Source: Harriotta raleighana (Eukaryota). From it: 64,000 nt of DNA. This document shows positions 3,881 through 51,437 of the stretch, one piece after another; positions within the stretch are counted from its first letter, which is position 1; each line of letters begins with the position of its first letter. Where the stretch lies: assembly GCA_050575255.1 (NCBI GenBank), contig JBNZDD010013698.1, forward strand, positions 5,776,314 through 5,840,313. The letters run 5' to 3'. Below the pieces are notes generated by a model. The model searched no databases. It was not told where the DNA came from and was given only the letters and a program-made list of their open reading frames with translations. A program made the translations under genes and the position numbers.

Positions 3881-4035
3881 ATATATTCTCACAGATCTCA
3901 GACTCCAATGGGATGATCGTGTACTTGAAGTTTGACCAATTCCTAAGGGAGGTGCTTAAGTTGCCCACAGCTGTGTTTGAGGGGCCGTCCTTTGGTTACA
4001 CAGAACACGCAGTCCGAACCTGCTTCCCACAACAG
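3881..4035 (+). CDS. DTNB: beta-dystrobrevin internal coding exon (EF-hand region), 155 bp
   Basis: Acceptor tttattacag|, donor CAG|gtgaga. Translates (Y)[51 protein letters not shown], a dystrobrevin sequence; [12 protein letters not shown] is the beta-type version. Missed by the ORF track. Confidence 0.95.
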
Positions 4036-4275
4036 GTGAGATGACTGGATACATTGTACATGACTGCAATTTGGAGGTGGGTTCCTTAATTAAGGAATCC
4101 AGATGTATGTCACTCCAATTTGTGGGAATTCCCGCTGACACAATCTATCAATGCAAAGATTGTTATTGTTATTAATTTCAGAGAGGAGTTCCTACAAGTT
4201 GCATGCGATGCATGGAATACATCTAGAGTTATCTAGATCCACATCTGGTTGCCAGAAGTGGATCTGACTTGATTC

Positions 4276-4520
4276 AACAACAAGAGAAAACAAATTGCAT
4301 TTATATTCTGTCTTTCACGTTGCGAGGATGACACAAGGTGCTGGACTGTCAAAGATTTGCATCCGAGCTGGGGGTCAGGGATTCGGGAGGGGTGAGGGCC
4401 GAGACAGCAGTGGGTGGTTGGGGGAGGAAATATGACCATAGAGTCAGTTGAAGACAAATGTCTTGAGAAGGACCTTGAAGGAGACGAAGGATTGGACAAG
4501 TCGAAGAGACTCTGGGAACA
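4276..4520 (-). mobile_element. L2 LINE 3' end fragment
   Basis: (CAA)n-type tail, catttat...tttcacgt...caaggtgctg, purine-rich 3' UTR as in the other L2 copies. Confidence 0.7.
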
Positions 4521-4541
4521 GCAGATTCCTTTGTTAACATA

Positions 4542-4760
4542 AACAAAAACGTAAAATACTACAGATGTTGGAAATCTGAAACAAAAAGTGCTGAGAACAC
4601 TCAGAAGGTCAGGCAGCATCTATGGAGAAAAGAAAAATGAGTCAACATTTTGTCAAGGACGTCCTGATGAAGGGTCGTGGACCCGAAACATTGACTCACT
4701 TTTCCTTTTGCCATAGATGCTGCCTAACCTGTTTAGTGTTCCCAGCGATTTCTGTTTTTG
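4542..4760. mobile_element. Palindromic Penelope-like terminal doublet with 16 bp TSD
   Basis: Arms ggcagcatctatgg...gagtcaac / ttgactc...ccatagatgctgcc. Flanked by the direct repeat ttcctttgttaacata (4526-4541, 4761-4776). Confidence 0.8.
4661..4696 (+). ncRNA. Minimal type I hammerhead ribozyme motif (PLE-associated)
   Basis: gtc-CTGATGA-a-gggtc-gtg-gaccc-GAAA-catt-gac: both core boxes, a 5 bp stem II and a short stem I (gtc/gac). Confidence 0.65.
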
Positions 4761-6533
4761 TTCCTTTGTTAACATATCTGCTTCATAACTGATCTAAGTT
4801 GGATCCCCTTGCTTGCCATTCTTTTGCTTGAAAGTGAATCGTGATTCTTTTCAAATTAGTGCTAGAAAAATTAAATTATCAGGATTTAAAAATTCTCAAA
4901 AGGTCTTAGATGTGGATGATTAGTACGGCGAATGTTATCGATTTGTAGGACTGGACACAGACTGAGCACATGGATGATTGTACACCGATTACTAAAAATA
5001 GAGAATGTGTCTCTGTAATGGGATTTCTTGAATAATCTGAACTCCGGTACTTAAAATAACTAAGTGAGCAATTTGTGAGAGGATGCAAATTCTAAAGCTA
5101 ATTAAGTGGCAGAAGGTTTAAAACGTAATGGTTTTATGCTGAGTGATTTGCCTATACAGTCATCTTGAGTAGCCACTTTAACCCAAAAGGCAGAGTGTAA
5201 CTCAATAATGAATAATTTGGGAGTCTGCGGTGTCTCCACTGAGAGCTGTAGTTATTGTACACCAGACTCATCCTCTCCCGAGACCTATCTGTTTGACAGG
5301 GCTATTGTGCACCTTTTCCTGCCAACCTCTTCTCTGCACCAGCTCGGGTCAGCTGTCAACTTTGAGATGTTTTCCTGCTGTTTGAATGTAAATTGGTTGT
5401 TGTTGTTATTGAATACATCTGTGCCAGTGTTTTTTTTATATGGTTATTCATAATCCTACATTTGATGTAGTCTCTTTCATGCCAGGAGGATGCATTAAAG
5501 TGTGGTGACTGTATCTTGTAGGCCAACATGCCAAGCTATTGATTCCATCAGGGGAAGGTTGGAAAGATGAAGGTGTAGAGGGGAGTTAGGACTAATTAAT
5601 GAGTTAGGAAATGGTTCTTCCACCTTTAGTGAGTTTATCTTTATCTAACTTGAACGGATGGAGTGAAAACCTCTTATTTTGCTGTCAGTTAGCAAATGAA
5701 TCCGGAAACCCTGATCATTATGGTGATGGATTGATAGTACTGTAACAATAAATAAGTCTGTGAATTTGTCATCACCGATATGTCTCTTGCATTAACAAGT
5801 CACCCATATTACGTTTAAAATGCACCATTGATTTCAAGTCTGTCCCAGCCCGAAGTATCAGAAACAAGGCTGTTGGAAGGAGCCCTGGTAATCCCTTTCT
5901 CAACAAAGTTCCTTCACAAGCAGATTTTCGATCAGAATATGATATGAATCAGTCAGATATACATTACATTATGGTATGATGGAATCCTGGCCACCTAAGA
6001 TTCAATTTGTACTTAATCCAGGGTCTCTTTAGAAACACAGCCCATTGAAGGCCAATTAGCCCATCAGGTCTCTGCTGGTTCTCTGAAAGACAAATCCATT
6101 CATTTACATTCTCCACACTCTTTCATATTTTACCTTTCCAGATATTTATCTAATACATTCTTAAAAGCTGATTTGGAGACCAGCTCAACCGTTGTTCCAA
6201 GCAGGGAATTCCATGATCTCCATCAGGGAGAAATGCTCCCCCAGATTGATGTGACGTATGCACGTTTCAATTTAGAGGCACCAAAAAGGAAGTCTGAACA
6301 GAAATTGTTCCTGGTTTGATCCCATTCATTTTTGTGACTGTTTGTGGGATATGAATGTGCGCCAGTTGGCTGCTGTTGCATTTTAACAACATGAGATGGA
6401 ACTGAATACAATGTAATGGTATTACAAAACTGAAAATTTTTGTTTGAATATTTCAGGGCTATCATTTTGTTGGCTGTGCTACATTACATTCTACATTGTT
6501 TAGCAGTGGGTCAATACAATAGTCCAACTCTGT

Positions 6534-6802
6534 GGAGTCCTCCAGCCCAGTGGTTAGAGCGCATGCTTTACAAGTGGGAGACCTGGGTTCAGTTCCAGGC
6601 AAGGCGAAACTATAATAAAAACATTAATAATTTGATCATTTCAATCCATGACTATTTGTGGGACACTGCTGTGCACAATCGGCTGTCATGTTTTGCTCAC
6701 ATACATATAGTCGAGTTACTTTACAGTTTATTCTGTGAAGTGCTTTGAGACGCCTGGAGGACGTGAAAAGCGCTACTGTATATCAAATGCAAGGATTATT
6801 AT
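6534..6802 (+). mobile_element. tRNA-derived SINE
   Basis: Head ggagtcc...cagtggttagagc, Deu core, tail tcaaatgcaaggattatt. Confidence 0.85.
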
Positions 6803-7964
6803 GAGTGATAAATTTAGCTTCCATTGCTAACATTTCTGGTTAGCATAGGATCATGAGACAATGGAGGTTGTGATGTTCTGGGATGCTACTCTGTCTTACA
6901 ACCGAGTGGAATACTTTTTCAGTGAACCTGCACTTTTGCATTGTGCTGTGCTATAATGTATTTTACATTCCACCACATATCATACTGTCAAATGCACTTT
7001 GATCTCTTGTAACATTTGCACAAACTTACCCAAGACTGAATTTAAGATGCAAATAATACAACTACACTAATGAAGAAGTGAAAAGCATGCACAGCGGGTC
7101 TGGGGATCATTATAATGCGGCCGTGGGGATCCATAAAACTCCAACCTGTGCTTAACTGAGTTGTGATAGCCTGTTGCACTGTGTGAGCCCCAGGCTGGAT
7201 GAAAATGGCATTGGCAAACAAAGCAGGAAATGACAATTGTGACAACCAAATCATTTGTAGTTGGTAATTTTAGCATCAGCCTGGCAGTCAGCCAGAAGTC
7301 GACTGAATTGTAATGAAATGCTTTGTAATGGGGCCATGCTGTAAATTATTTCTGTAACTCCTGAATTTATATTGAGACATCAGCAACTGTGGCTGCCTTT
7401 GGATTTGCATACCTATCGAGTGCAGTATTTCACGACCGGTTCTCGGTTACCAAATAAACTCGGCACCAAAGTAACCAAATTAATCCAGAATCCGATAGTG
7501 AAAACCAACAGTGTACAAACTAATACATGTGCTGTGACATTACATGAGTCAGAAGTTTCTAACTTATGATTGTTTCGAAGATAGTGTAAATGATCAACAC
7601 AACATATGGTTTGAAGGCAATCCTAACTTCGTGCAATCACACATTTGCAAATTGACGTAATAAAAATATGTAAGTTATATAAACACACATAAATATATCA
7701 TGTGTATATATCTTCCAAATTATAGTATAATATAGTAATTGAAACTGTGAATAAATTTGGTCACAAATATTCATGAATGGAGGGCCTCAAAGGCCCTTCC
7801 TTTGTTGATTTATGTCAGTGCAAAGAATAATAGACAATGTTTGAAGAACCAAAATCAAATCTGTTGAAGTTTTAATAATAAATAAGCCATGCATTTGATA
7901 TAGTGCCTTGCACAGTGTCAACTCCTCAAAGTGCTTCACAGGATATACTATAAAGTAGTTCATT

Positions 7965-8296
7965 AGTCTTGTAGCTCAGTGGGTAGAGCTCTTGCCTCTC
8001 CGGTGAAACATCTGGGTTTGATTCCTGGCAGAGTGAAACCCTGGGCAAGTTTCCTTACTCCACACACCTCTGTTTACCTGACAGAAGTATAATGGCAGGA
8101 ACCATAACAATCCCTCCAGAAGAAAAAATTGGTCACTTCAATCTATGACTGATTGTGGGACACTGCTGTGCATAATTGGCTGCTGTGTTTTGCCCATAAA
8201 TATACAGGCAGTTCACTTCACAGTATATTCTGTAGAGCGCTTTGAAACATCTAGAAGATGTGAAACATGCTGTATCAATATGCAAGGATTATTATT
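7965..8296 (+). mobile_element. tRNA-derived SINE (long variant)
   Basis: Head, extra cctctgtttacct... segment, core and tail all present. Confidence 0.85.
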
Positions 8297-11075: not shown

Positions 11076-11405
11076 GGAGTCCTGTAGCTCAATGGTTAGA
11101 CCACTCATCTTACAAATGTGAGACCTGTGTTCGAATCCTTGTAGGTCAGGGTGAAACCTTGGGTAAGTTTCCTTACTCCACATACACGCCTAATAATAAT
11201 CCCTCCAAAAAAAAGCAATAATAGAATTGTTTATTTCAATCCCATGGCTGTTTGTGGGACGCTGCTGTGCGCAATTGGCTGCCGCGTTTTGCCCACAAAT
11301 ATACAGTCAATTCACTTTACAGTATATTCTGTGAAGTGCTTTGAGATGTCTAGAAGACTTGAAAAAGTGCTATATCAAATGCAAGGATTATTGTTATTAT
11401 ATTAT
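11076..11405 (+). mobile_element. Full-length tRNA-derived SINE
   Basis: A box, B box gttcgaatcc, Deu core, L2-like tail. Confidence 0.9.
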
Positions 11406-14103: not shown

Positions 14104-14876
14104 GATTAGAGATTAGAGATCTCCAGGGCAGCAAGGCATTTTATCTCTCTCTGTACTTTAATGATCTGGTCAGTTATTGAAATTGCTCATCTGATTTCCT
14201 CTGAGGATATACATTCATCTGCAGTTTATTTTTTCCCCCTAAAACAGGCATAGAATATTGAAGCGATGCTTCATGTGAGACACTCCATAAATGTTTATGG
14301 TGGGTGTTCAGTGAAGCAGAATTTATTTTTCAAATCATAGTTTTCTCATCAGAAACATTTTTTAAAAAGAATGCTAATGGGTCTTTAGTATTTTACTTAA
14401 TTCCCAGATAGACACGTGAAGCAAATCAATTCTGATTTCTTAAATAGCCAACATTAAAATAAAAGCACAACAAAAAAATTCACCTTGAGTTATTCTGGTG
14501 ACTTTTTATGGTGAAGTTTTGTTGCCCTTCATGTATAGCGCTTATGAATGGAACATTTTTTCCCCCCATTTTTGCCACCTGGTGTTTCAAACAAAATATC
14601 TGGGTCATATAGTGCCTAAAGTGCCTTACTGGATATCCTCCTAACATGAAAGGCCATATGAGGTACAAATTGTCATGTATCGTAGGAAAATTAATTGCTT
14701 AACCCCAGAAACATTCTTGAGGTAAGTTAGCTTTTTTGAGAAGAACACACCATAAATATTTAAACTCAATCAAGTTAAAGAAAGACTAACACAAAGATAC
14801 AGAGGAACATCTTGTTGCATTAGCTTTCATGAAAAAAACATTTATGGAATTCCTAACCGATCATTTTCTTTTTCAG

Positions 14877-14982
14877 AAAAAAGTCACCTTAAATATGTTT
14901 TTGGACACAATGCTGGCTGATCCTCCTCCACAGTGCCTAGTCTGGTTACCACTGATGCACAGACTTGCCAATGTGGAAAATG
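14877..14982 (+). CDS. DTNB: beta-dystrobrevin coding exon, 106 bp
   Basis: Acceptor ttttctttttcag|, donor G|gtaagt. Translates [35 protein letters not shown]. Phase 0 start matches the previous exon. Confidence 0.96.
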
Positions 14983-18310: not shown

Positions 18311-18477
18311 TCTTCCATCCGGTGGAGTGCTCGCACTGTCAAAGTGACAGTATGATGGGTTTCCGGTACCGTTGCCAACAGTGCCACAACTACCAGCTCT
18401 GCCAGACCTGCTTCTGGCGTGGTTATGCCAGTGGCTCCCATAGCAACCAGCACCAAATGAAGGAACACTCCTCTTGG
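18311..18477 (+). CDS. DTNB: beta-dystrobrevin ZZ-type zinc finger exon, 167 bp
   Basis: Acceptor ttcctctcccctgcag|, donor TGG|gtaagc. Translates (V)[55 protein letters not shown], with three CxxC motifs plus HxxxH. Phase 1 start matches. Confidence 0.97.
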
Positions 18478-18654
18478 GTAAGCACCAGATTGCACGAGGC
18501 GATTGTGAAAGCTTGCAGCTCCGAGTGTTTGTTCTTATGGTTTTTGTGCAATTACCCTTTGCAGACGAGCACACTCGAGGTTGACCTGGTCTAGATCCAG
18601 CCGTTCACTGTCTTTCTCTTACCTCCCAACATTCTGACCCACAGTGCCATCCAG

Positions 18655-18950: not shown

Positions 18951-19054
18951 TCAGTGGAATTGCCAATTGAATTAGAACTACCTCTTAGTATATGAATAAA
19001 AGCTCAGACCTCAAGCTCCTCAGAATTCGAACAACTAGCCTACTCACAAATATA

Positions 19055-19982
19055 AACCAAATGCAAAATACCGCAAATGCTAAAGATCTGAAACAGAACA
19101 GGCATACCAGAGAGAGAAAAGATATGTCTGGGACCCGAATGACGTGGTAATGATCACAGAAGAGTGGGATGGGGTGAAGGAAGGTGAGTTGTTATGGTCT
19201 GAAATTGTTTAAATCAATATTGAGGCCAGAGGGCTTTAAGGTCCCTACAACAACAACAACAAAGCTTCGATTTATAGAGCGCCCTCCACGCTGGACGGCG
19301 CATCAGAGTGTTTCACAATAACAGATCCCGGGGGCGAGCCAGGGGCAGGGGGAAAAAGGTGACCAAAGGCACGGTCGAAGAGAAAGGTGTTTAGTTGAGA
19401 CCTGAAGGTGCCTTGGCAGATGGATAAGGTGCTGTTCCTTGAGCTTGCACTGTGTGTGATTTATTGGAACAGCACAGTAGACTGTGGATGGAGAGGTCAG
19501 TCTACGAGTGGGAAGGAGAGTTGAAGTGGCAAAAAAATCAGAAGCTCAGGGTTGAGTTGCGGACAGAATGAAGGTGTGCAGCAAATCGGTCTCCCCAATG
19601 TAGAGACCATATTGTGAACAGTGAATGCAGTATCCTACATTGGTGATGATAAACATAAATTACTGTCTCACATCAGCCTCTGGGCCTAAACTCTCCTGTT
19701 ATGTTGCAATCCCCCTCCCCCCACTTTGTTTTACACCATTAACACCACCTTAACCCATCATTTCTTGCCCTCTAAACCATTTTTGCCTTTGTCTTCCTTG
19801 CCCTGCCTCCCCCCACTTTGTCTTCCTTGCCCTGCCTCCCCCCACTTCTGTTATACCTTAAAAAGTCTCTCCCTCCCAATGTGCCTCAGTTTTGATAAAG
19901 GGTCATGGACTTGAAACGTTGACTCACTTTCCTTTCTCCATAGATGCTGCCTGACTTGCTGTTCCCAGCGACTTCACTTTTT
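19055..19982. mobile_element. Penelope-like element remnant: GIY-YIG endonuclease (minus strand) plus inverted terminal copy
   Basis: Reverse complement of ~19195-19670 gives frameshifted NVGYCIHCSQYGLYIGET..RFAAHLHSVR..HFNSPSHS..KLKEQHLI..LKPSGLNID. The terminal repeat with a decayed hammerhead core is on the + strand at ~19888-19980. Confidence 0.8.
19247..19404 (-). mobile_element. L2 3' end inserted into the Penelope remnant
   Basis: (CAA)n tail; near-perfect TSD aaggtccct / aaggtgcct (19238-19246, 19405-19413). Confidence 0.75.
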
Positions 19983-21554
19983 ACTTACAAATATATTTGT
20001 TTACAAATATATGCTTTCACTGGGTTATTATGCAGGGTAGAAAATGACCTTGAATTTAACTTTGCATCGTATCATGTTGTTGAACATCTCAAAGCTCTTT
20101 ATAGGGTATAATAACGTTAGTCTTCTAACTGACTAACCGTCCGACCGACCGACTGACTGTGAATGTCCACATATCACGTAGTCCCTCTTGTGAAATGCTT
20201 TCGGACATCTTCCCAACGTGAAAGCCACTGATTGTTATTATGTATTTATAAATGGAAGGAGTAGGGAATGTGCACATAGTAATATCCCACAGATAGCTCT
20301 GACGTGGATGACTAATGTTCAGCTACAAAACACGGGATATTACTGTGATGTGCTTTTGAACATCTCCATGAGGCGACAATGTGTTAAATGCAAAGATTCT
20401 TCTATATTTTACGTAGAGGATTGTTAGCTAGGACACTGGGAGAAATTTACTTCAAGTAGTATTATGTAATCGCTAATGTCCACCTGAATAGAAATACACA
20501 ACCTTAGTTTAATGTTTGATCTTATTGACAATAGGGTGTCAGCATGGACTATGAGTAATCCTGACATGGGACTTGAACCAATAACCTCCTGACTCAGAGG
20601 CAAGGCTGTTACTGAGGCTGCCCTCAGATATAATCTCTTATAAATTACTTTCCATGCCCTAAAATTTTACTTGCTGCACTACTGTATAAATATGGTTTCA
20701 AGTGCACTTAAAGCTCTGCTCTCAATTACTAATAGCAGATTGAATATAATTGAAGTTCACTAAGCTATGCCTTAAAGGATTCTGAGTGTAGAAAGCTTTT
20801 TTAAAATTTTTCTTCAAGGTTTAAATTGTCTTAAAATATTGGTGTTAAGTTTTCTCACAAGTCGCTTGCAGGAACAAATTAACATTTGCATGGGTCAGCA
20901 TGTAAAATGTATAATCCCTTGTGCTGCTGGCCAAAAAAACAAAAGTTTTACAAATTGGCACTTTTTTGTTGGATAATTTATTTCCTGTTATTTCTTTAAA
21001 ATATTTCAAAATAAATGGAATAAATACTGCTTCCTAAAAGCATTGTAAAGTGTAATGTCCTTTACTGTTTACTGCATGAGTCAATTATCTGGATGTGGAA
21101 GCAAGCCTAATTTTTAAAAAAAATTCTGAGTCTTATTTGGTTCCATTAAAAAAAATCTGCTTGTTTGAACTAGTAACATCTGAAGAACATCTGTCAGTGA
21201 CAATTATGCAAAANAAGCCTAATTTTTTTTAAAATTCTGAGTCTTATTTGGTTCCATTCAAAAAAATCTGCTTATTTGAACTAGTAACATCTGAAGAACA
21301 TCTGTCAGTGACAATTATGCAAAATTGTCTGTCAAGAGAAATGAACAAATAGAGCCATAGTAATACCAGACTTGTCTTCTGATAGCCTGTGAAGTTATGA
21401 TCACTCAACCCAGTCTTGGAGAGAGACCAGAGAAAGTAGGTTAAAAATAGACAGATCATATACATTTCCAGTAGGTAGCTTGGAAGTGGATGTTGGAAAT
21501 GTATTTTTTTCACAAATGTTTTTTAAACAATGGTAGCGTTTAATCACTAATTAA

Positions 21555-22010
21555 AATAATCCTTACATTTGATATAGTGGCTAGTCACATCATTGAGACG
21601 TCTCAAATCGCTTCACAGAATATACTGTTGAGTGAATTGACTGTATATTTTGTGGGCGAAACGTGGCAGCCAATTGCACACAGCAGTGTCCCGCAAACAG
21701 TCGTGGATTGAATGTCCAATTTATTTATTTATTTAATGGAAGGGATTATTAATCCTGGAAAAGAGCAGGGTCATACATATTGCCAGATAAACAGAGGAGC
21801 ATGGGATAAAGTAACCTTTGTAAGGTTTTGCTGTCCAATTTATTTATTTATTTAATGGAAGGGATTATTAATCCTGGAAAAGAGCAGGGTCATACATATT
21901 GCCAGATAAACAGAGGAGCATGGGATAAAGTAACCTTTGTAAGGTTTTGCCATGCCTGGGAATCAAACCCGGGTGCAAGGTGAATGCTCTAACCACTATG
22001 TTACAGGACT
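21555..22010 (-). mobile_element. tRNA-derived SINE with internal tandem duplication
   Basis: Tail, Deu core and head (gctctaaccact...acaggact) are present. Confidence 0.85.
21713..21950. repeat. 119 bp x2 perfect tandem duplication
   Basis: 21713-21831 reads identical to 21832-21950. Confidence 0.9.
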
Positions 22011-23987: not shown

Positions 23988-24302
23988 TAATAATAACAAT
24001 CCTTGCATTTGATATAGCGCTTTTCATGTCTCCTAGACATCTTAAAGTGCTTCACAGAATATACTGTAAAGTAAATTGACTGTATATTTGTGGGCGAAAC
24101 ATGGCAGACAATTGCGTACAGCAGTGTCTCACAAACAGTTGTGGATTGAAGTGATCAATTTTGTTACTTTTTTTTGTCTTGAGCGATTATTATCAGGCGT
24201 ATGGAATAAGGAAAACTTGGCCAAGGTTTCACCCTGCTGGGAATTAAACCCAGGTCTCTCGCTTGCGAGGCGAATGCTCTAACCATTGAACTATAGGGCT
24301 CC
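23988..24302 (-). mobile_element. tRNA-derived SINE
   Basis: Complete tail, core and head on the minus strand. Confidence 0.88.
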
Positions 24303-24974
24303 TGTGTAAGTGTAAAATCTCTGGAACCCCTCAAGCTTTCAGATGTATTTTTGGACAAGATTTGAAAAAGAATCATGAATGGTATCAAGCCAGATATTTT
24401 TCCCCCAGAATTTCATTTTAATTGGATGCTCTGAATTTTTTAATGCTTCTGTTACTTTGTAATGCTTTAATCTTTATTTAATTACCTTAAATTCTTAATT
24501 TGGTATTTCATAGCCATGATGGTATCTTCCCTCATTACTTCTGTCCTTTGAAATGTTGCAGTTCTCAATCAAGCTGCAGTTCCAACGGTGGTGGTATCCC
24601 TTTGGTATCTCATCCAAATGACATTTGTTTGTGTGAAGCGATATTTTCAGAAAGGGCAATAGAGCTAAGATTGTTCCCACCCAAGCCTAACATCCACACT
24701 CCTTTCCAGGAGGAATCATTGGATGGCAATTGAGAGTGGGAAGCCTGGCTGAATCTTTTGATATAGCTGAACTTTCTCATTGACAGCCATGGGGTACAGA
24801 AGGTAATAGAGTGTCCACCAATATCTTTGCTACAAGCAGCTAACCGCACTGATCAGGCCCATTCCTGGTTTATGTTGCTCATTGCTACATTGGCCTTCAA
24901 TCGACTAATTTTAGCACCTTAATGTTAAACAATGAATCTTGCTAGCCATATTTCTTCAGAACTGGCATTCTAAC

Positions 24975-25850
24975 TGCATTTCTGTCCGACATCGAGTCCT
25001 GGACGAGGACAAATTTCCCACAGCTCAATGTCAACAAGAGGGAGCGTCAGCCGCTGATAACATCAGCGTTCAAGGCTGCTCTCTCCACCTCTTAAAGCCA
25101 ATCAGGAATCTGGGCATCTTGTTCGACCCCGAACTATCCTCCCTACCCCACATCCGCTCCATGACCAACACAGCCTTCCACCACTTCTGCAATATTACCA
25201 GACTCCTCTACTACCTAACCCCCCATGCCGCCGAAACCCTCATTCACACCTTGATCACTTCCAGGCTCGACTACGGGAACTCTCTCTACATTGGCTTTCC
25301 AAGCTCCTCCCTTCACAGGCTGCAGATCATTCAGAATTCTACAGCTTGTGTACACTCGCGCACCAGGTTTCGCGACCACATCAATCCCACCCTCGGCCGT
25401 CTCCACTGGCTCCCCATTCCCCAGAGGATCGACTTCAAGATCCTCGTCCTCACCTTCAAGGCCACCCCGTCTATCTCTCCGACCTGCTGCCTCCCTATCA
25501 GCCTGCCAGCACCCTCCATTCAGCAGACGTTCTACGTCCACCGCCCTAACCGCCCAACCATCGGTGGCCGGGCTTTCAGCCTCTCAGCCCTCACACTCTG
25601 GAACTCCATCCCGCAGTCCCTCCGCCTTGCTTCCTCCCTTTCCTCCTTCAAGGCCGGTCTCAAGACCTTCCTCTTCGACCGCGCGTTCGGCTCCCCCCCG
25701 AACTCTTACCCCTCTTCCACTCTCCTTCCCCCTACCCCGACCCTCACCCCGCTGCTCGGGTCCCGACCTGACTATTCAGCACTTTGGGACGTCCTCCGAA
25801 CGTGAAAGGCTCCATACAAGTGTAATTTTGTTGTTGTTATTATTGTTGTT
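24975..25850 (+). mobile_element. L2 LINE 3' ~0.9 kb (ORF2 C-terminus, pseudogenised)
   Basis: IRNLGILFDPELS..AETLIHTLITSRLDYGNSL..LQIIQN..LHWLPIPQRIDFKILVLTFKA..GGRAFS..LWNSIP..FKAGLKTFLF; tail gtgaaaggc..tgtaattt(tgt)n. Accounts for ORF 24939-25805. Confidence 0.93.
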
Positions 25851-26228: not shown

Positions 26229-26601
26229 GTGTCCTATAGCTTACTGATTATAGCACTCGCCTTGCAAGTGAGAGGACCTGGATTCGATTCCCAGGCAGGA
26301 TGAAATGTAAAGCAAGTTTCCTTAGTCCACATGGCTCTGTGTATCTAGCAGGAAGTAGGAACCCGCAAATTTGATTGGTGTATCACTTTGGCGTAACAAA
26401 TCCTTCAATATAATAACAAAATAAATAAATAATTTGGTCACTCAATCCACGACTGTGTGTGGGACACTGCTGCGCACAATTGGCTGCTGTGTTTCTCTAC
26501 AAAATATACAGTCAATTCACTTTATGATATATTCTATGAAGCTCTATGAGACATCTCAAAGATATGATAAGGCACTATATCAAATGCTGGGATTATTATT
26601 A
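26229..26601 (+). mobile_element. tRNA-derived SINE (long variant)
   Basis: Head with gattcgattcc, extra ctagcaggaagtaggaacccg segment, core and tail. Confidence 0.85.
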
Positions 26602-28096: not shown

Positions 28097-28411
28097 ATAA
28101 TAATCATAATCCTTGCATTTGATATAGTAGTTTTCATGTCTTCTATATGTCTCAAAGTGCTTAAGAGAATACACTGAAAAGTGAATTGACTGTATACAGG
28201 TGGGTGAAACGTGGCAGCCAATTACGCACAGCAGTATCCCACAAACAGTCGTAGATTGAAATGACTAATTATTGATTTTGTTCTGAGGGATTATTGTCAG
28301 GCGTGTGGAGTAAGGAAAGTTGCCCAAGATTTCCCCCTGACCTGCTGGGAATTGAACCTAGGACTCTCGCTTGTAAGGCGAGTACTCTTAACCACTGAGC
28401 TATAGGACTCC
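28097..28411 (-). mobile_element. tRNA-derived SINE
   Basis: Complete copy on the minus strand ending ...gagctataggactcc. Confidence 0.88.
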
Positions 28412-29460: not shown

Positions 29461-30752
29461 TATTTGAAAAGAATTTGGAAAGTTTCTGACCAGCAGAACC
29501 CTCCTGAAATCTTTTTGTATCATTAAAATACTGGCTGAATGTCGACTGAACTGCCGTACTATAGGTTCTGTTTTAGTTAACTTTCGTAGAAAATGTCAAA
29601 GCAAAACAGAGAATGTTTAATCCTTCAAGGCTGTATTTATCATCTCACTTGGCACTATTAATATAAAAGTAATCCAAAGAAAAGATGCACTTCTGAAACA
29701 GTTGCCACCCAGAACATCAAATGAGTTTGAATTTATGAGGGCAAATGATTTTATTATACAGCGTGCGAGTGTGCTTGTTTAACAAGTCTGAAATCTTCTA
29801 ACTTACATACCTCAGATGATCTCTGTGGCATGAGTGCCGCAAGGTAAGCAAAATAACAAATTAATAATTTCCTTCTAATATTTTAGCATTTTATTTTTCC
29901 AAATGCTTCTTATTTCTGAAGCAGTTCTCCACTCCCAGTCAACCCACAGATGTGAAAGCTGCAACTAATGATCTCTTCCACCTTTAAAGTACAAGCCTTG
30001 CATTTTCTATCTTAGTCTCAATCTAATGTCATTTTAATTTAGCCAGGTTTGTACTGTCATAAATATATTGATGCAGAAAGTGACTTAGCTTTTGCCAAAT
30101 CTAAAATTTGATTGATTCATTGTTGAAAAATGCAAAACATAAAGGTTGCTTCAATGCCTATTTAGAACTCTAAAGACTTGATCTAATGCAAATTGCTTGT
30201 TCAGCACTTTGCACAAAGGGACGGTCGTTAATACTTCAAAATGTATCATTTGAAAGTGCTAATATTTGAATAAACATTTCAGATTGGAAATTTGTCTGAG
30301 TTTGCAAACCAAAAATCTGCTCCACATGTAATTTATAATGTTATTGATATTACAACTCACTAATATTGGGATTCAGTCCTTACATAAATGACTCCCTCCC
30401 TTTACAGCCAGCTCATTTTTGTCGTTTTAGTCCACCAGTGATAGAGTTGATAAGCCAACCATCAAATAAACGTTGTGTCAAGAGAATATTTTTAACTTGA
30501 GAGTAAATTGGCTGTACCTGCATTCTGGAAATAGGATCTCAGAATCAATGGGAGAAGCATGTGGATACAATTAGCACCTTTGCCAAGTTTAGTAATGAGA
30601 AATCTGGATGGGTTGATGACTTTCTTCCACATTGTTCATTTCTAAGCCAAGGAAAGAGTGCCTTTAAAATCACATTGGCAGCAGTAATTCAGGCATACCT
30701 TCAATGCGTTTTAAAGTCGTTTGCACTTAAAATCCAACAATGATCGGAGCAA

Positions 30753-30846
30753 AAACAGAAATCGCTGGGAACACTCTGCGGGTCATGCAGCATCTATGGA
30801 GAAAGGAAAAGTGAGTCAACGTTTCAGGTCCACGACCCTTCGTCAG
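30753..30846 (-). mobile_element. ~94 bp Penelope-terminal insert with 14 bp TSD
   Basis: TSD aatgatcggagcaa at 30739-30752 and 30847-30860; the body matches the arm at 4664-4760. Confidence 0.85.
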
Positions 30847-30848
30847 AA
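30814..30848 (-). ncRNA. Minimal hammerhead ribozyme motif
   Basis: Reverse complement: tt-CTGACGA-a-gggtc-gtg-gacct-GAAA-cgtt-gact; intact core boxes and palindromic AACGTT. Confidence 0.7.
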
Positions 30849-31409
30849 TGATCGGAGCAAGTTGACTAGAAATGGAAAAAAAATCTGACCAGTTTCTAAC
30901 ACGTTCCAGCTTGATTAAAATAATTTTTTTAAACTGATGTTAGTGGCTGATTTGAAAGTGTTCCTAACTAGAAATTTTGCAATAGTTTTTCAGAACCTTA
31001 CACTGCATGCAGCTTGCAAATAAATTGTAATGAATTGTCTTTTGTGTGTTACTCCATGCTACTTACTTTATCTTGATAATGTAAGTACTGTATGGTCATT
31101 GTCAAATTTATTTCTGTTTAAATGTTATGCAGTCGATTGTGTGAAGCACTTTGAGATATCTTGAAGTCGTGATAAGGCGCTATCTCAAATGCAAGGATTA
31201 TTATTCTGGTTATTATTTTCCTAGAGTTGATATGATAAGCAGGGTGGCAATTATGATGGGATGTATGGGCCAGTTTCTGTGTATCTGAGGCATGGGGTTA
31301 GTAGTTCTTGTCTACTGGGACCCAGTTGTTCCACAAGTCCAATAGCATATAGTGAATACTTAAAGTCTATAGAAATCATAAGGACATAATAAATGTTTTA
31401 GCTGTACTT

Positions 31410-32552: not shown

Positions 32553-32677
32553 AAATCACCTGCAAAGAAGTTGAGCCATGCAATTAGCAAGTCCCTTGGA
32601 TGTGTACCAAGCAGAGAGCCACCTCATCCTGTATACCCCGAGATGCCAGAGAAACCTCTAGATTTGGCCCATATAGT
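32553..32677 (+). CDS. DTNB: beta-dystrobrevin coding exon, 125 bp (ends in phase 2)
   Basis: Acceptor ttatttttacag|, donor GT|gtgagt. Translates [41 protein letters not shown](V), which is DTNB-like rather than DTNA-like (LTNALSKSLSC). Missed by the ORF track. Confidence 0.95.
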
Positions 32678-34958
32678 GTGAGTAATTAGCTTTTATCTGA
32701 AATTAAGCCCAGATGTGAATAGTACTGCAATGGTTTCTTTATTTCATGAATAAATGGCGATTGCAGAGAGATTGGGGCAATGCATTGATAGTACTGCAGT
32801 AGCTTCCTTTGTAACACATCAAAATACACTTTGAATTGATTTTGCATAAACTGGCAAACCAACCTGGTTGCATTAATCAACGTGGAATTCGCAGTGAAGA
32901 TCTTATTACTGCATTACTGGAGACTAAAAACCTACTTAAAAACTGTTACAATTATTGAAGTTTTAGTTCTTAATTGCATCCACCAAACCATAGTGTATCT
33001 CATTATGAAAAATGCAAGAGAATGAAATTCAAGCCTCGCCAGCTGGTTAAGTGCTTGTTTATTAGAGACTCAATTCTTCCTAAACCAATACTTTTATTGG
33101 CTGGTATTGATGCAATCTATTCTGTGTTTTGATTTGAGTGTTTTCACAAATGTGCTGATGGCGTTGTAACTGAGTTACAAACAATATAAGTAGATTTTAT
33201 CATTTAGCATTGGCTGCTGTTCACATCAGAATTATTTGAAATTCAAACTTTGAATTTTGTTTTTGTTAAAGTTCCCCCAAGAATTAGATAAGATTAATCT
33301 GGTAAATTGTCTTACATTCATTAATGTAAGTTATATACCAGGGATGCATTAGCAAAAGGTATGTACGGAGAGGAATAGGTTTTCTTTATTGTAAACTCTT
33401 TTGAGGCCTCTAACACTGTCTACGTACACTTGGAATGTTGAACATAATGAAGTCTTCAGTAAAGGTATCACATAGAATTTGGGGGGTCTTTAGCAGTAGC
33501 ATCTTCAAGCCACTTTCATTCAAAGCTGCAAAACTATCATTGCATGGAGGCAATCAGCCCACTAAATCCTTGTTTGTAATGTAGTAGCAAATTCAATGGC
33601 AGTCAATTAGTCTATGCTCTCTGTGTTATTGCTCAGTTTATCTTGACGTTGTGCTATTTCCTGGAGGATTTCCATTGCAAGCATGCTGCAAATGTTATAC
33701 TAAATGGCCAATAAGATATCCATGACATCATATGGACAAAATTATAAGATGATTTAGGAGTAGGTTGTTGCTGGAGGATTCAATGACAAGAACTGTTTGC
33801 GCCTGTGTAATGCTTTTCATGTAGGAAACCATTTCAGAAATGTTTACAGTGACTGTGCAGGACCCTGAGTGTGTGAGTGTGTGTGTGGGGGGGGGAAGGT
33901 TTTGAAAGATGAGATGGTAGGATTTGGATAGAGAGTTCCATACACATTCACAGACCAGCATTGATAGTTATGCTGCTGCTGTGAGAGACAGAATTTAAAG
34001 GCATGGTTTAGCACTGAACTAAAACCCTTAAATTACACGTACGATGCTTGATTTATTTTCAAATTGCAAGCCACATACATTGGATCTGATCATTGCCTTC
34101 TGCTGTATTGTTTTAATCTGCACTGTTTACAGTCAAAACTCTTTGTTCAACTCATCACAGCCTGAAATTAATAGGATTTTCACAGTTCTAGCTTAAACAG
34201 AATGTGTGTATTTGCTCAGTCACCTTAGAGAAGGGCAGCGATGGAAGAATTGTGAGTTCTTTTGAGGTCACAAATTGAGAAGAGAGTGGGAAAGATTTAG
34301 TGGTTTGTTTGCTCTCCTTACAGAGATGATGATTCACTGTTGAGATTAATTAACTGATTCTGATCTACACAGGACTGAATTTCCTAGTAATCAACTGCAG
34401 ATTATTTCAGCAAGCTTACTGACAAAATAAATGTCACCATCATTTGTTCTCTGACTATGCCTCCAGGTGGAATGGGCGGGGGAGGTAAAACCAAGCCCAA
34501 ATTCCTTATTCACCCTCCTACAAAAAATATCACTTGATGGTACATCTTATGAAGTGTTTTGAGTTGTCCACTAGATGTGACAGACTATATATTACATGTA
34601 ATGATTATTAATATATATCCCTCTCCACTGTGCATAATTGGCTTCTATATTCGCCCACACAATATATAGTCAATTCACTTTACAGTATATTTTGTGATGC
34701 ACTTTCAAACATCTTGAAGGTTCTATATATTTGTCCTGTAGCTCAGTGGTTAGAGCACTCGCCTTACAAGTGTGAGATCTGTGTTTGAATACAGTCAGAT
34801 CAGGGTGAAATCTTGATCAAATTTCCTTACTTCTTACTCCACACAACTCATAATAATCTGTCCCCCAAAAAAAATCTATAATAAAATTGATCATTTCAAC
34901 CCAAGACTTGTGGACACTGCTGTGTGCAATTGGCTGCCGCGTTTCACCCACAAATATA

Positions 34959-37346: not shown

Positions 37347-37588
37347 AACAAAAAAACAACAATTGCTGGAAGCACTCAGCAAGTCTGGCAGCATGAATGG
37401 AAAAGGGAAAGTGAGTCAACGTTTTGGGTCCATGACCCTTTGACAGAAGGATCTGATGAGGGAACCTGGACTCAAAACGTTGACTCACTTTCCTTTCTCC
37501 ATAGATGCTGCCTGAACTGCTGAGTGCTCCCAGCAATTTCTGTTTTAGTTTTAGACTTCCAGCATCTACAACATTTTGTGTTTTGTTT
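37347..37588. mobile_element. Palindromic Penelope-terminal doublet with decayed hammerhead cores
   Basis: Arms gaaagtgagtcaacgttttg / caaaacgttgactcactttc around ...gaccctttgacagaaggatctgatgagg... Confidence 0.8.
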
Positions 37589-38809
37589 ATTTTAAAAAAA
37601 GGTGCTTGATTGGGGACATGAATTGACTGACACAGCTTTGACTCAGAATCCAGTAGTGCCATTATACATTATATTCTACATTAAATTCTAGTTTTGAAAA
37701 TGCTTCCTGGGAACATTCATCAGGGCTACCTGAATTCTAATTTGTGGATTAGAAACAGGAAAAATGCAGGAACATTATTTGAATGATGCAAAACAATTCA
37801 GTATCCCCATATTCCGGCTGTTCTGGTACATTTCTGTGGTTTGAACTGTATATTTTGAGAATTGCAAAGAAAGATGATCTGCCCTCTCAGATGCTATCCT
37901 GGATGAAGGTAAATTGTATCTGATTTAAGATTGAATGAATCCAACGCTCTTTGGTGGTGAGAGATGACTTGACAGGGTTGATGGGCAAATATCCCAAATC
38001 TCATCGAATAAAACATCCTCTCAATAGAAAAAGGATGTGCATTAAAATCACATTTATCCATTCCAGTACCTGGAGATATTCTCACTGCCAATAATTTGGG
38101 CTGAAAGCTGCTTTAAGCTTTGCTTGCAGCCATTTATTGGCCAGTATCAATTTCACTTCTAAGTACATGTATGGTTCTCCTCTCAGATGTGGTGTTAAGA
38201 AATGCTAGAATATAAAATTATATCATATTTCAAAGCTCTGTGCAAATTATGTGTTCCCTCTGGTGTGTTGTTGCAATGGTAAATTGCATTGTGCATCAAG
38301 TGAATCATCAGGATATGACATCTGATATCTCATACTTCCGATCCAAGCATGAAATTCAAATGGTCTTTACACATTCCCTCCTATTACAGTGTATGGAATC
38401 CCTGCTCCTCACATTATTTACACCTGTAATTGTTTCACCACAATAGAATGATTTCTTCATCATTCAGCTGCAGTGGAAAAGTTCTGATGTTCCTGTCTAT
38501 GAATAGGTCCATAGACGTACTTTGAAGTGAAATTGACAACACTGTGTAATTGAAGTACTGTACACAGTGGTAGATCTTTTAAAATTTATCTAAAGTTGGT
38601 AAAGCCAGGCTCTGGAAATTCAATAGAAAGTTGAACACATTGAAATGCTGGGCAACAATATTTGAGGTTAGCAGGTTATCAATGCAGTGGATGAAAACTA
38701 AACTAGGCATCTCTATTTGTGGATGTTCTCTGCAAATTTGCAGATATGAATTAACGCATAATGTTTCTATTCCAACGTTTATATTTCAGCCTTTACTTTA
38801 GTAGTAATT

Positions 38810-41971: not shown

Positions 41972-42291
41972 GGAGTCCCGTAGCTCAGTGGTTAGAGCAC
42001 TCGCCTTACAAGCGTGAGACCTGTGTTTCGCATCCAGGCAGGTCAGGGCGAAACCTTGAGCAACTTTCCTTACTCCACATTCCTAATAATAATCCCTCCA
42101 AAAAAACCACAACAATAAAATTGGTCATTTCAATCCATGACTGTTTGTGGAACACTGCTTTGCACAATTGGCTGCCGCCCACACATGTATGATCAATTCA
42201 CTTTCCAGTATATTCTGTGAAGCGCTTTGAGACATTTAGAAGAGGTGAAAAGTGCTATATCAAATGCAAGGATTATTATTATTTTATTATT
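41972..42291 (+). mobile_element. Full-length tRNA-derived SINE
   Basis: ggagtcccgtagctcagtggttagagcactcgccttacaagcg... tail (TTA)n. Confidence 0.9.
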
Positions 42292-43969: not shown

Positions 43970-44080
43970 TAATCTTTTATATTTTCATTTGCTTGAGCAT
44001 AAACACAATTTACATAATCTTAATGTGTATGTACAATAATCCTTCATATTCTCATTTGCTTGAGTATAAACACAATTTAG

Positions 44081-45690
44081 AACAACAACAAAAGTACATT
44101 TATAGAGCGCCTTCCATGTCAGGAGGATGACCCAAGCGGCTGAACTGTCGGGTCGGGACTCGAGCATGGGGAAGGGGTGGAGTAGGTGTAAGGGGAGGAG
44201 AGAAGTGGGAGGGCAGCTGAAGGCATGGTTGAAAATTAGGATCTTGAGGCCATGAAGGAGGCAAGGGAGGAATGAAAGTGGAGTGACCGTGGGGTAGAGC
44301 AACTGAAAGCTCGGCCACCGATGGTAGGGCGGGTCGGGCGGTAGACGTGGAGCAGATCGGAGCCTGCTGAATGGGAGGAAGTGGGCAGGTTGGTAGGGCG
44401 TCGGCAGGTTGGAGAAGTAGGAGAGGGCAAGGCTATGGATGGCCTTGAAAGTAAGGACAAGGATCTTGAATTCTATCCTCTGGTGGATGGGGAGCCAATG
44501 AAGCCAGGCGAGGGTGGGAATGATGGGGTTGTGGAGCCTGGTGCGGGATAGCATACAAGCTGCAGAGTTTGGGATGATCTGCAGCTTGTGAAGGGGAGAG
44601 TTCAGAAGACCGATGAGGAGGGAGTTTCTGTAGTCAAGCCTTAATGTGACGAATATATGGGTGAGGGTTTCGGGAGCCTGAGGGGTGAAGTAGTGGCGGA
44701 GACTGGCAATGTTGCTGAGGTGGTGGAAGACAGTGCTGGTCATGGTGCTGATGTGGCGGACAAAAAGGACAGTACAGGGTCAAACAAGACACCCAGTTCC
44801 TGACTGACTTTGTAAGTGTGCAGCCATGGATGCTGATTCTGCCAAGATCCATCTTGTCCCTTTGACAGAAAAGGGAGGTTGGAGATGGGTCAGTTGAAGA
44901 GCTGTGATGCATCAAGGGAAAGTTTCTTTAAAATGGGGGAGATAGGGCTGAGGTGGGGATGGAAATTGAGTGGGCAATGGCAGCTGAGGATGATTTGGCA
45001 TAGGCGAGAGCAGAGTACAGTAAAAGCCTGCGTATCCGGCACCCTCAGGACCTGTCATGTGCCGGAATGTGCTGAATATGTGGGGGACAAGTTGCCAAAA
45101 ATCCAACACAAAAAATTTACTTTTTTTTTAAACATGCCATATTAATAATAGACTAAATAATAACCGAATATTGTATGGATATATACCAATAAAGCAATAA
45201 ATATCGATTATAGTCTATAAACACAGCACACAATCACAAAGAAAACTTTCTACAATGGTGGATGGAAGAGTTTTTTTCTCTTAAAACGGCATTGTTGGTT
45301 TTTCCTCTTAAAGTGATACTTTAAGAGGAAAAACCGACAGTGCTGCTTTAAGAGGAAAAACCGGCAATGCGACTTCAAGCCACTACTGGCAGCATTCAGA
45401 ACTATTCATGCTGTACTCTCGTGAGACAACTGAATGCGCCAGCGAGAGTGTGCTGGATGGCTCCGGTTGCTTAAATATGGAATTTTATGGGGGGCGCTGG
45501 TTAGTTGGGCATTCCAGTTGTCTGGGTGCCGCATAAACAGACTTTTACTGTAGTAGGTTTTGATGTGGTCCAGCCAGATGTGCCAGTGGATCGTTAGGTT
45601 GGATTTGAGCCAAGTGCATTCGGTGGCCAGCACCTGGCCTTTGAGCCAGCAGAGCTGGATGGTGAACCAGGGTGAGGTTCAAGAATAGGA
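44081..45690 (-). mobile_element. Internally deleted L2 LINE interrupted by a MITE
   Basis: ORF 43985-44743 (RLDY..LQII..LHWLPIHQRIEFKILVLTFKA); pre-RT motif at ~44865-44930; upstream PWFT..IHWHIWLDHIKTY at 45551-45670. Confidence 0.85.
45018..45550. mobile_element. Tigger-like MITE related to family A, nested in L2
   Basis: TA-cagtaaaagcctgcgtatccggcaccc ... gggtgccgcataaacagacttttactg-TA. Confidence 0.85.
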
Positions 45691-46114
45691 GGCAGAAATC
45701 ATAGAAATGAAATGATAAAAATTAAACTGAAAAATATTCACAACTACTTAACACAAGCAAATGAACAGGGTAGAGGAGGAAGAGAGATATCTAATGCCGC
45801 TTTATCATTTAAAAAAAAACCTTTGAGACAGCTGGATAATGATGTCTTTGGGGATCAAGGGTTAGAACTTGAAAGAATCATGTGAAATTGATCAAAATCG
45901 ATAGGTTCGAGGGGGTTAGGCACAAGGTTATTTGTGTTCTCATTTTGTAACTTGGCAGATCAGGACCCTCGGTTAGCTCTCACACCTCCTCCTCATATGC
46001 TATGTTTCTGATGATTGTCAAATATTGCTCCCCCTAACCTACAGTAATAATTTCAGGCAGGAACTTGTTTGAAGCTTTTTGTATAGCATTTTTTTTTCTT
46101 CTACTACCTATGTG

Positions 46115-46320
46115 AAAAACAGAAATTGTGGGAACATTCAGCAGGTCAGACAGCATCTATGAAGAAAGGAAAGTGAGTCAACGTTTTGTGTCCATGACCC
46201 TTCGTCAGAACTGGGCCAAGTTGAGAGGGAGAAGCTTTTAAGAACGAAAAGAGAAGGGTGGAGGGTAGGGCAAGGAAGACTAAAGAAAACGGGGTAGAGG
46301 ACAGGAGAAGATAGGTTAAA
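46115..46320 (-). mobile_element. Penelope-like terminal fragment with hammerhead-like core
   Basis: Reverse complement agtt-CTGACGA-agggtcatggacac-aAAA-cgtt-gact, followed by the common terminal sequence. Confidence 0.75.
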
Positions 46321-46359
46321 ATGGTGTTAGAAGGTGCTTAATAGTATTAATTAGTTCTA

Positions 46360-50511: not shown

Positions 50512-50791
50512 GTTCCGCTGACCCACCTGCTCCATCATTGGCGGGCGAGCCTTCAGCCACTCTGCCTCTAACCACTGGCACTCCATTTCGCAGTCCCTCC
50601 GCCTCGTCCCCTCCCTGGCCTCCTTCAAGTCCCTCCTCAAGACCTTCCTCTTTGACGGTCTCATTGGTCACCCCAAATCCCCACTTTACCTCCACCTGTC
50701 CCGTCCCCAGCTCAGGTCTGAAATAATGACTGTCCAGCGTCTCGGGATGTAAATGATGTGAAAGGTGTTATACAAGTGTAATTTTGTTGTT
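50512..50791 (+). mobile_element. L2 3' fragment
   Basis: ggcgggcgagccttcagc (GGRAFS), ctcaagaccttcctctttgac (LKTFLFD), tail. Confidence 0.8.
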
Positions 50792-51437
50792 NGGAGACGC
50801 TGGACAGTCATTATGACTGTCCAGCGTTTCGGGATGTAAATGATGTGAAAGGTGTTATACAAGTGTAATTTTGTTGTTAGAATGCGATGCAAGGGAAATC
50901 ATTGTTTCATCAAACTGGAGTTCAGTATAGATGCTGTTTTTAGTTTTAAATGTTAAAATGGCAATTTGCAGTTTTTCAAGAATTGTGATTATGCTACATT
51001 TCAGATTGAGTCTGTTATGAAATGATGAAATTTGAGTCACCAATTATCTGCATTTTTTTAGGTTAGAAACCCTCTGCAAGCTTGACATAGAGTTGGAGCC
51101 TTTAAAAATTCTTTGGCTGGCATCTTAGTTTGGGGCTGAGTGAGATCAAAAGAAAACATGTTTATATGACTTCAAAGGCAACATCTGACATCCTATTTTT
51201 AGATGTACAAATACATTATACATTAGTGGGTGTCTACAGATCTCCAACCATGTTGAGGGAGAGCGGGATACAATGTCCACAGTTGAGCATTTAACAGCAG
51301 ATAGAGCCCTGTGTAGGAATTAGGAGTTGGAACATCTTGTGTCCAGTGCCCTGGCTACAGTCAGCACAAACTGAGAAATGGCTTTCATGCTAAACCTGGT
51401 TGTATCTTCATGCAATGAATCATCAGGAAAGCCTATA

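What the first reader, a model, noticed from the sequence alone, without database searches (positions are those of the whole stretch)
30739..30860. Tiny hammerhead-bearing retro-insert with a perfect 14 bp TSD
Seen: a ~94 bp insert bounded by aatgatcggagcaa on both sides. Its minus strand begins essentially at CUGACGA and continues a-GGGUC-gug-GACCU-GAAA-CGUU-GACU. Established: Penelope-like elements carry minimal type I hammerheads whose palindromic stem III region (here AACGUU) is proposed to pair in dimers. Inference: this is a young, independently inserted PLE-terminal unit, either an extreme 5' truncation or a non-autonomous ribozyme-SINE/retrozyme-like family.
Basis: partly seen in the sequence, partly recalled or inferred. 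Interest (0 to 1): 0.75.

Follow-up and report, generated by a model that had tools for sequence, protein, structure and literature searches.

The report
Old Penelope end fragment, crippled ribozyme
This is a real 94-base jumping-gene insert with a 14-base target duplication, but it is an old copy, shared with related species, of the end of a very common retrotransposon (likely a Penelope-like element), and its hammerhead ribozyme has lost a stem and so likely cannot cut.

Summary
In detail: a perfect 14-bp duplication (30739-52 = 30847-60) flanks 94 bp whose minus strand carries a minimal type I hammerhead core. 'Young' is refuted: contigs of two other organisms, whose flanks differ by 7-13%, carry the insert at the same site. 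It is one of 7 related arms in the window and of thousands genome-wide (about 4,000-8,000 from read depth). The family has the Penelope-like hallmarks: optional ~40-nt tail, head-to-head pairs, 14-16-bp duplications and a decayed GIY-YIG-like piece (motif level only). This copy lacks the 5' strand of helix I (2 bp, not 4), has G-U for G10.1-C11.1, has no tandem partner and lies antisense in a dystrobrevin intron, so it is likely inert. Ribozyme cleavage did not make its 5' end, which lies 29 nt upstream of the predicted cut. One lead survives: 3 of 5 loci have 5' ends within about 3 nt of the core start, just downstream of a TATA-like/initiator-like pair. Short copies may be run-off cDNAs to the RNA start, not random truncations or a SINE. 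Not shown genome-wide.

The parts
30739..30752 (.). Target-site duplication, left copy; its last 3 letters also match the element's 3' end (microhomology)
30753..30846 (-). 94-bp insert: tail-less 3' end of the pseudo-LTR of a likely Penelope-like family (30750-30848 if both microhomologies are counted)
30814..30846 (-). Minimal type I hammerhead motif: CUGACGA 30846-40, extra A 30839, helix II 30838-34/30830-26 (G-U at its base), GAAA 30825-22, ACGU palindrome 30822-19, predicted cut after 30818, helix I 3' strand 30817-14 without its full partner
30847..30860 (.). Target-site duplication, right copy; its first 2 letters also match the element upstream of the core and supply the only 2 bp of helix I
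4542..4760 (.). Same family: head-to-head pair (tailed inverted arm with a 15-nt deletion, then tail-less direct arm), palindromic junction centred 3 nt before the core; 16-bp duplication 4526-41/4761-76
37352..37590 (.). Same family: head-to-head pair, 6 nt between the two core starts; no clear duplication found
46114..46340 (-). Same family: longer copy with about 130 nt of upstream pseudo-LTR, TTAAAA at -33, initiator-like A at -4, 4-bp helix I
19055..19981 (.). Same family: composite insert; inverted arm with a decayed GIY-YIG-like C-terminus and tail (minus strand), then a direct pseudo-LTR arm (TTAAAA at -34, initiator-like A at -4); 14-bp duplication with 1 mismatch, 19041-54/19982-95
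18355..18490 (+). Host gene: dystrobrevin-like ZZ-domain exon upstream of the insert (ends approximate; motif recalled)
32574..32690 (+). Host gene: next dystrobrevin-like exon found downstream, so the insert lies antisense in an intron of about 14 kb (ends approximate; motif recalled)

Best explanation
The insert is an old copy, shared with related species, of the terminal repeat of an abundant retrotransposon, likely a Penelope-like element, likely made when target-primed reverse transcription ran off the 5' end of the element's RNA, and its hammerhead is likely inert. Steps: (1, inferred from Penelope biology) the endonuclease nicked the two strands 14 bp apart. (2, ends shown, mechanism inferred) Reverse transcription began at the tail-less internal start, helped by a 3-letter match to the target. 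(3, shown) It copied through the uncut hammerhead, so cleavage did not define this unit. (4, inferred, weakest step) It stopped 0-2 nt before the core because the RNA began at the initiator-like A at -4, about 29-30 nt after a TATA-like box. (5, inferred) The end was joined through a 2-letter match and gap filling made the duplication. The copy lost the predicted promoter and half of helix I, so it would be dead on arrival. The shared part (old Penelope-type end copy, real duplication, likely inert) I hold at about 0.9; the confidence given is for the whole statement including step 4.
For: Age: organism C contigs span both junctions (30300-30799, 43 other letters; 30812-31119, 34) and an organism B contig spans one (30535-30802, 20), at single-copy flank depth. 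Family: 7 arms in the window, 79-88% identical to the insert; read depth 15,589 against a flank mean near 2. Penelope hallmarks: 5 of 7 arms end at one point and 2 of 7 carry a ~40-nt tail; the tail is also the majority loose end of 4,965 reads; head-to-head pairs; duplications of 14, 16 and 14 bp; YIGET-bearing piece at 19.2-19.66 kb. These match PMC8557442 and PMC3846280 (passages). Internal priming, two-strand extension, product length set by the template's 5' end, and no need for ribozyme cleavage are reported in PMC11167929. 5'-end clustering: 3 of 5 loci within about 3 nt of the core start, p 0.004-0.03 if loci are independent; TTAAAA at -33/-34 and initiator-like A at -4 in 2 of 2 long copies; loose-end agreement falls to 0.49 at the 5' end against 0.71-0.80 at internal breaks. 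Inert: helix I 2 bp against 4 bp in the long copies, G-U at 10.1-11.1, antisense to the host gene.
Against: The majority loose end at the 5' side (4,395 reads) is the upstream pseudo-LTR, so about half the letters there come from copies that run on; the other half may be other subfamilies, not ends. The tool listed no place where many molecules begin or end (table 6). If the two inverted pairs are one amplified composite, clustering is 2 of 4 loci, p 0.13-0.36. The 19-kb head-to-head junction is far from the core, and the 5' end of the inverted 4.6-kb arm is ambiguous. The TATA-like box is non-canonical and was picked after the fact; the same sequence reads as a splice acceptor. The promoter of Drosophila Penelope is TATA-less and internal (PMC2377424 passages). 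The endonuclease piece found no true relative in Pfam or two protein searches. No full-length element was seen.
Confidence: 0.47

Rival explanations
1. Same old Penelope-type end copy, but the 5' end is an ordinary random truncation that happened to fall at the hammerhead start and was joined by microhomology.
For: Penelope-like insertions are highly 5'-truncated (PMC8557442 passage). The majority of 5' loose ends run on upstream. 2 of 5 loci are long. Clustering is not significant if the two inverted pairs are one event (p 0.13-0.36).
Against: 4 of 7 arms clearly, and a fifth possibly, start within 3 nt of the core; both inverted pairs have 6 nt between the arms' core starts; the head-to-head joint at 30848/30848 recurs in all 4 runs (36 reads; 7, 10 and 13 contigs), though the reference ends there and may pool nearby junctions.
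Confidence: 0.3
2. The 5' end is fixed, but by RNA processing or fold-back and not by the transcription start: the pyrimidine run plus CAG just before helix I is a splice acceptor, or palindrome-forming self-priming sets the junction.
For: Pyrimidine-rich upstream ending in CAG in 2 of 2 long copies. In Drosophila virilis Penelope the intron ends at the 5' end of helix I (PMC4209133). Palindromes at inverted junctions were read as self-priming (PMC3846280 passage); the 4.6-kb junction is a perfect 10-nt palindrome.
Against: A spliced template should add exon 1 upstream, but the insert abuts the duplication directly; self-priming does not explain a single arm with a duplication.
Confidence: 0.13
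3. A self-propagating non-autonomous family (ribozyme-SINE or retrozyme monomer) with its own master copies.
For: Short, end-defined unit with a long duplication; non-autonomous Penelope derivatives and retrozyme monomers exist; Drosophila Penelope has an internal promoter, so a short copy could in principle be transcribed.
Against: No tandem unit; unit end is 29 nt from the predicted cut; helix I incomplete; no tRNA head; the insert is as close to a long copy (84%) as to short ones (79-88%); no burst of near-identical copies (98 of 19,616 reads at 99%+).
Confidence: 0.08
4. A young, possibly polymorphic insertion with an active ribozyme.
For: The duplication is perfect; this arm has the most intact core of the 7 (only pattern match).
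Against: Present at the orthologous site in two organisms with 7-13% of flank letters differing; helix I and the 10.1-11.1 pair are damaged.
Confidence: 0.02

Closest known systems
Minimal type I hammerheads (min-HHR) of metazoan Penelope-like elements (PMC4209133)
   Same: Core, extra base between positions 9 and 10.1, no helix III beyond a palindrome, mostly single dispersed copies, some in opposite-strand pairs 100-700 bp apart.
   Different: This copy has 2 bp of helix I and G-U at 10.1-11.1; helix II is 5 bp; the predicted cut follows GUU. The family majority keeps C11.1 and long copies keep a 4-bp helix I.
Endonuclease-bearing Penelope-like elements: solo and inverted pseudo-LTRs with tail (PMC3846280, PMC8557442)
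   Same: Optional 30-40-nt tail at one end, head-to-head arms with palindromic junction, duplications, microhomology junctions, TATA and initiator-like motifs in the pseudo-LTR.
   Different: Duplications here are 14-16 bp (8-10 bp in the rotifer passages seen); the copies are very short, and several start at the hammerhead. No full reading frame was seen, so the clade (Poseidon or Neptune) is not assigned.
Anolis Poseidon element PAc in vitro (PMC11167929)
   Same: Two internal priming sites (tail and tail-less ends), both strands extended, product length set by the template's 5' end, ribozyme cleavage not needed.
   Different: The text I read does not report genomic 5' ends clustered at the RNA start; its supplements, not seen, may bear on this.
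Non-LTR retrozymes of animals (PMC7229834; bioRxiv 10.64898/2026.07.22.740005)
   Same: Type I hammerhead, kinship to Penelope pseudo-LTRs, dispersed monomers, long duplications.
   Different: Defined by tandem units each with a complete hammerhead; here a single unit, incomplete helix I, no tandem copy in the window.

Membership tests
PLE minimal type I hammerhead | Core CUGANGA ... GAAA ... UH | tested here: met
PLE minimal type I hammerhead | Unpaired base between positions 9 and 10.1 | tested here: met
   A at 30839
PLE minimal type I hammerhead | Palindrome at 15.2-16.2 allowing a dimeric helix III | tested here: met
   ACGU at 30822-19; the unconstrained two-strand fold did not pick the hammerhead dimer for this copy
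PLE minimal type I hammerhead | G10.1-C11.1 pair | tested here: not met
   G-U in this copy (30826); C in 5 of 6 other arms and in the read majority
PLE minimal type I hammerhead | Helix I of 4-5 bp | tested here: not met
   2 bp here; 4 bp in the 46.1-kb and 19.9-kb copies
PLE minimal type I hammerhead | Self-cleavage as a dimer | not testable with these tools
   needs in vitro transcription
Penelope-like element (EN+) | Terminal repeat with optional 30-40-nt tail | tested here: met
   2 of 7 arms tailed, 5 of 7 end at one point; tail is the majority loose end
Penelope-like element (EN+) | Head-to-head inverted arms | tested here: met
   3 of 5 loci; opposite-strand joints in 4 of 4 runs
Penelope-like element (EN+) | Target-site duplication | tested here: met
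   3 of 5 loci: 14, 16, 14 bp
Penelope-like element (EN+) | Linked RT plus C-terminal GIY-YIG frame | tested here: inconclusive
   decayed YIGET-bearing piece inside the 19-kb insert (motifs recalled); no true library match; no RT piece seen
Non-LTR retrozyme | Two or more tandem units, each with a complete hammerhead | tested here: not met
   no tandem at this locus or among the window's arms; arrays elsewhere in the genome not tested
Non-LTR retrozyme | Expressed as linear and circular unit RNA | not testable with these tools
   no RNA holder listed
SINE | tRNA/7SL/5S-derived head with internal polymerase III promoter | tested here: not met
   no Rfam match at the insert
SINE | Fixed 5' end and copies descending from short master copies | tested here: inconclusive
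   ends cluster in 3 of 5 loci; no genome held, so no tree or end table

The most novel reading that the evidence does not exclude
A large share of the thousands of copies in this genome are complete run-off cDNAs from the 5'-proximal internal priming site to the capped RNA start, which is the first base of hammerhead helix I. Head-to-head pairs would be two such run-offs primed on opposite strands and joined at their ends. Penelope micro-inserts would then map the element's transcription start from DNA alone and explain the long-standing inverted-repeat-plus-tail structure without self-priming.
Probability: 0.3. Interest if true: 0.55.

Novelty: new member of a known kind. Interest (0 to 1): 0.27.

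Why it matters
The insert itself is ordinary: one of thousands of old end fragments, with a ribozyme motif of a kind described in 2014. It is a usable clade marker, since it predates the split from organisms B and C. What could matter is the pattern around it. How Penelope-like elements make their tailed, head-to-head ends is still called undefined in the papers read. If short copies stop at the RNA start, one genome-wide end table plus a 5'-end map would test a twin run-off model directly.

Tried and rejected
No genome is held for this window, so the genome-wide end table could not be made. Rfam: no hammerhead match at gathering or E 10. Pattern scans: 0 matches; 11 loci, all rejected as chance 21-letter matches with no wider likeness. 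Folding of 4 single strands gave no unusual stability (z -1.07 to 1.32), and unconstrained dimer folds did not give the hammerhead dimer for the insert; neither says much about cleavage. Endonuclease piece: 0 Pfam families, 0 of 23 candidates, 2 hits that are unrelated repetitive proteins; an atlas look-up gave no result, so that route is open. No RNA holder listed. Empty site: no such joint among the 15 joints shown, 120 not shown; organism A reads barely cover the adjoining flanks and run X1 does not bridge the site, so polymorphism is untested. Contig depth was not used as copy number. Earlier findings of the scan: nothing in 3 look-ups. Rejected: cleavage-defined 5' end (29 nt off); youth from the perfect duplication; effect on the host pre-mRNA (antisense). 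One paper on dimeric cleavage of small hammerheads was not held and is not relied on.

Full report
Observation. The 14 letters at 30739-30752 recur exactly at 30847-30860 and the match extends no further; 94 bp lie between. Chance is about 1e-6. On the minus strand the insert starts with CUGACGA (30846-40), an extra A, a 5-bp helix II with a 3-nt loop, GAAA, then CGUU and GACU; the predicted cut is between 30818 and 30817. The pattern occurs once in the window against 0.03 expected. Rfam finds no hammerhead here.

Setting. The window lies in a dystrobrevin gene on the plus strand: the exon near 14.9 kb matches dystrobrevin in the PDB at E 4.5e-17, and further exons were found by recalled motifs near 18.4 and 32.6 kb. 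The insert is therefore antisense in an intron of about 14 kb. The host is a vertebrate; a genome near 1 Gb follows from read depth if organism A is the same or a close species (1,894 million letters giving about 2-fold flank depth). My reading as a cartilaginous fish is recalled from the look of its repeats and comes from no call.

Family. BLAST and a profile search agree on 7 arms at 5 loci, 79-88% identical to the insert; an eighth, more decayed arm lies at 19.05-19.66 kb. Of the 7, five end at the same 3' point as the insert and two carry about 40 more letters (arm limits were set by hand). The 4.6-kb and 37-kb loci are head-to-head pairs, tail on one arm only. The 19-kb locus is a larger head-to-head insert whose inverted arm holds a decayed frame with YIGET and a C-terminal stretch that I recognise from memory as a Penelope GIY-YIG end; libraries did not confirm it. 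Duplications were found at 3 of 5 loci: 14, 16 and 14 bp, the last with one mismatch. Tail at one end, inverted arms, palindromic junctions, solo repeats and microhomology junctions are described for Penelope-like elements (PMC8557442 and PMC3846280, passages).

Reads and contigs. Four runs from four studies were laid on 30300-31120 at 85% likeness (4 of 15 listed). In raw reads of organism A, 19,616 reads were laid; depth at 30807 is 15,589 against 0-5 in the flanks, about 4,000-8,000 copies at this likeness. Only 98 reads are 99%+ alike, 1,105 are 95-99%, 7,669 are 90-95% and 10,744 are below 90%. Family alignments reach 30750 and 30848, so 3 letters at the element's 3' end and 2 at its 5' end are shared with the target. 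The majority loose end beyond the 3' end is the tail (4,965 reads, agreement 0.63); beyond the 5' end it is the same upstream repeat as in the two long window copies (4,395 reads, agreement 0.49).

Age. In organism C one contig runs 30300-30799 (47 letters inside the insert, 43 other letters) and another 30812-31119 (35 inside, 34 other letters). In organism B one runs 30535-30802 (50 inside, 20 other letters, no gaps); its right-flank contig has 35 other letters over 270 and does not bridge. The insert thus sits at the same site in organisms whose sequence here differs by 7-13%, and B and C share most of the listed differences, so it predates the split from both. A perfect 14-mer survives 10% divergence 23% of the time. 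'Young' is not supported. An empty site was not seen, but only 15 of 135 joints were shown and organism A reads barely cover the flanks.

Ribozyme. The two long copies have AGUU before the core, which pairs with GACU after the cut (4-bp helix I). The insert begins at the core; the target supplies 2 bp. Position 11.1 is U here and C in 5 of 6 other arms, so the G10.1-C11.1 pair, listed as highly conserved in PMC4209133, is G-U. That paper found no cleavage of a single minimal motif and low cleavage of dimers; 8 of 9 retrozyme dimers did not cleave in the 2026 preprint. There is no tandem partner and the strand is antisense to the host transcript. The copy is likely inert; this is inferred, not tested. 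A unit made by cleavage would start at 30817, 29 nt further in, so cleavage did not make this end, in line with PMC11167929, where catalytic mutants still insert.

Why this 5' end. Four of 7 arms clearly start within 3 nt of the core, and a fifth may (15-nt deletion): 3 of 5 loci. Under uniform ends over 100-300 nt this has p 0.03-0.004, but p 0.36-0.13 if the two inverted pairs are one event. In both long copies TTAAAA starts at -33/-34 and an initiator-like A lies at -4, the first base of helix I; such a pair occurs at 2e-4 per base in the window, though the motif was chosen after the fact. PMC11167929 shows priming internal to the RNA downstream of the hammerhead, on both target strands, with product length set by the template's 5' end. 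Priming at the 5'-proximal site would copy only about 100 nt, up to the RNA start, and two such products would give the tailed and tail-less head-to-head pair. I hold this at 0.47, random truncation at 0.30, a splice- or fold-back-defined end at 0.13, a SINE-like family at 0.08, and a young active copy at 0.02. Against it: about half the 5' loose-end letters run on upstream, subfamily differences could explain the rest, no start or end pile-up was listed, the 19-kb junction lies elsewhere, and Drosophila Penelope has a TATA-less internal promoter (PMC2377424 passages).

Comparison and novelty. It works like a solo Penelope pseudo-LTR end with a minimal hammerhead. This copy fails two hammerhead features and the tandem test for retrozymes, and has no SINE head. 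Penelope membership rests on structure; the protein link is motif-level. I found no paper describing 5' ends clustered at the RNA start in searches, judged from listings and the passages read; subscription papers and supplements were not seen. Papers seen: PMC11167929 parts 1-2 of 4 plus passages; PMC4209133 parts 1-2 of 4; bioRxiv 10.64898/2026.07.22.740005 parts 1-3 of 5; passages only of PMC3846280, PMC8557442, PMC2377424, PMC7229834.

Verdict. Real feature, known kind, old and likely inert: interest 0.27. The run-off pattern is the one lead worth a genome-wide end table.

Noticed in passing
window 19041-19995: Composite head-to-head insert with a decayed GIY-YIG-like C-terminus, later interrupted by an unrelated repeat piece at about 19245-19410; 14-bp duplication with one mismatch.
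   Followed up: partly
window 4526-4776 and 37352-37590: Two ~220-240-bp head-to-head pairs whose junctions both sit 3 nt before the hammerhead core; either twin run-offs or one small amplified composite.
   Followed up: partly
window 1201-1272, 11078-11149, 24229-24300, 26230-26303, 28337-28409, 34732-34803, 41974-42046: Seven tRNA-like heads of a ~320-bp SINE whose 3' end recurs about 25 times in the window; the tail looks L2-like (recalled).
   Followed up: no
window 14865-14982, 18355-18490, 32574-32690 (+): Exons of a dystrobrevin gene; beta-like by recall.
   Followed up: partly
window 21713-21950: Perfect 119-bp tandem duplication; imperfect tandem duplications of 111 bp near 21100-21320 and 87 bp near 50726-50880. 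Could be real or assembly artefacts.
   Followed up: no
window 24936-25805 (+), 43985-44779 (-): Decayed LINE reverse-transcriptase C-terminal pieces, L2-like by recall; no Pfam match for the first.
   Followed up: no
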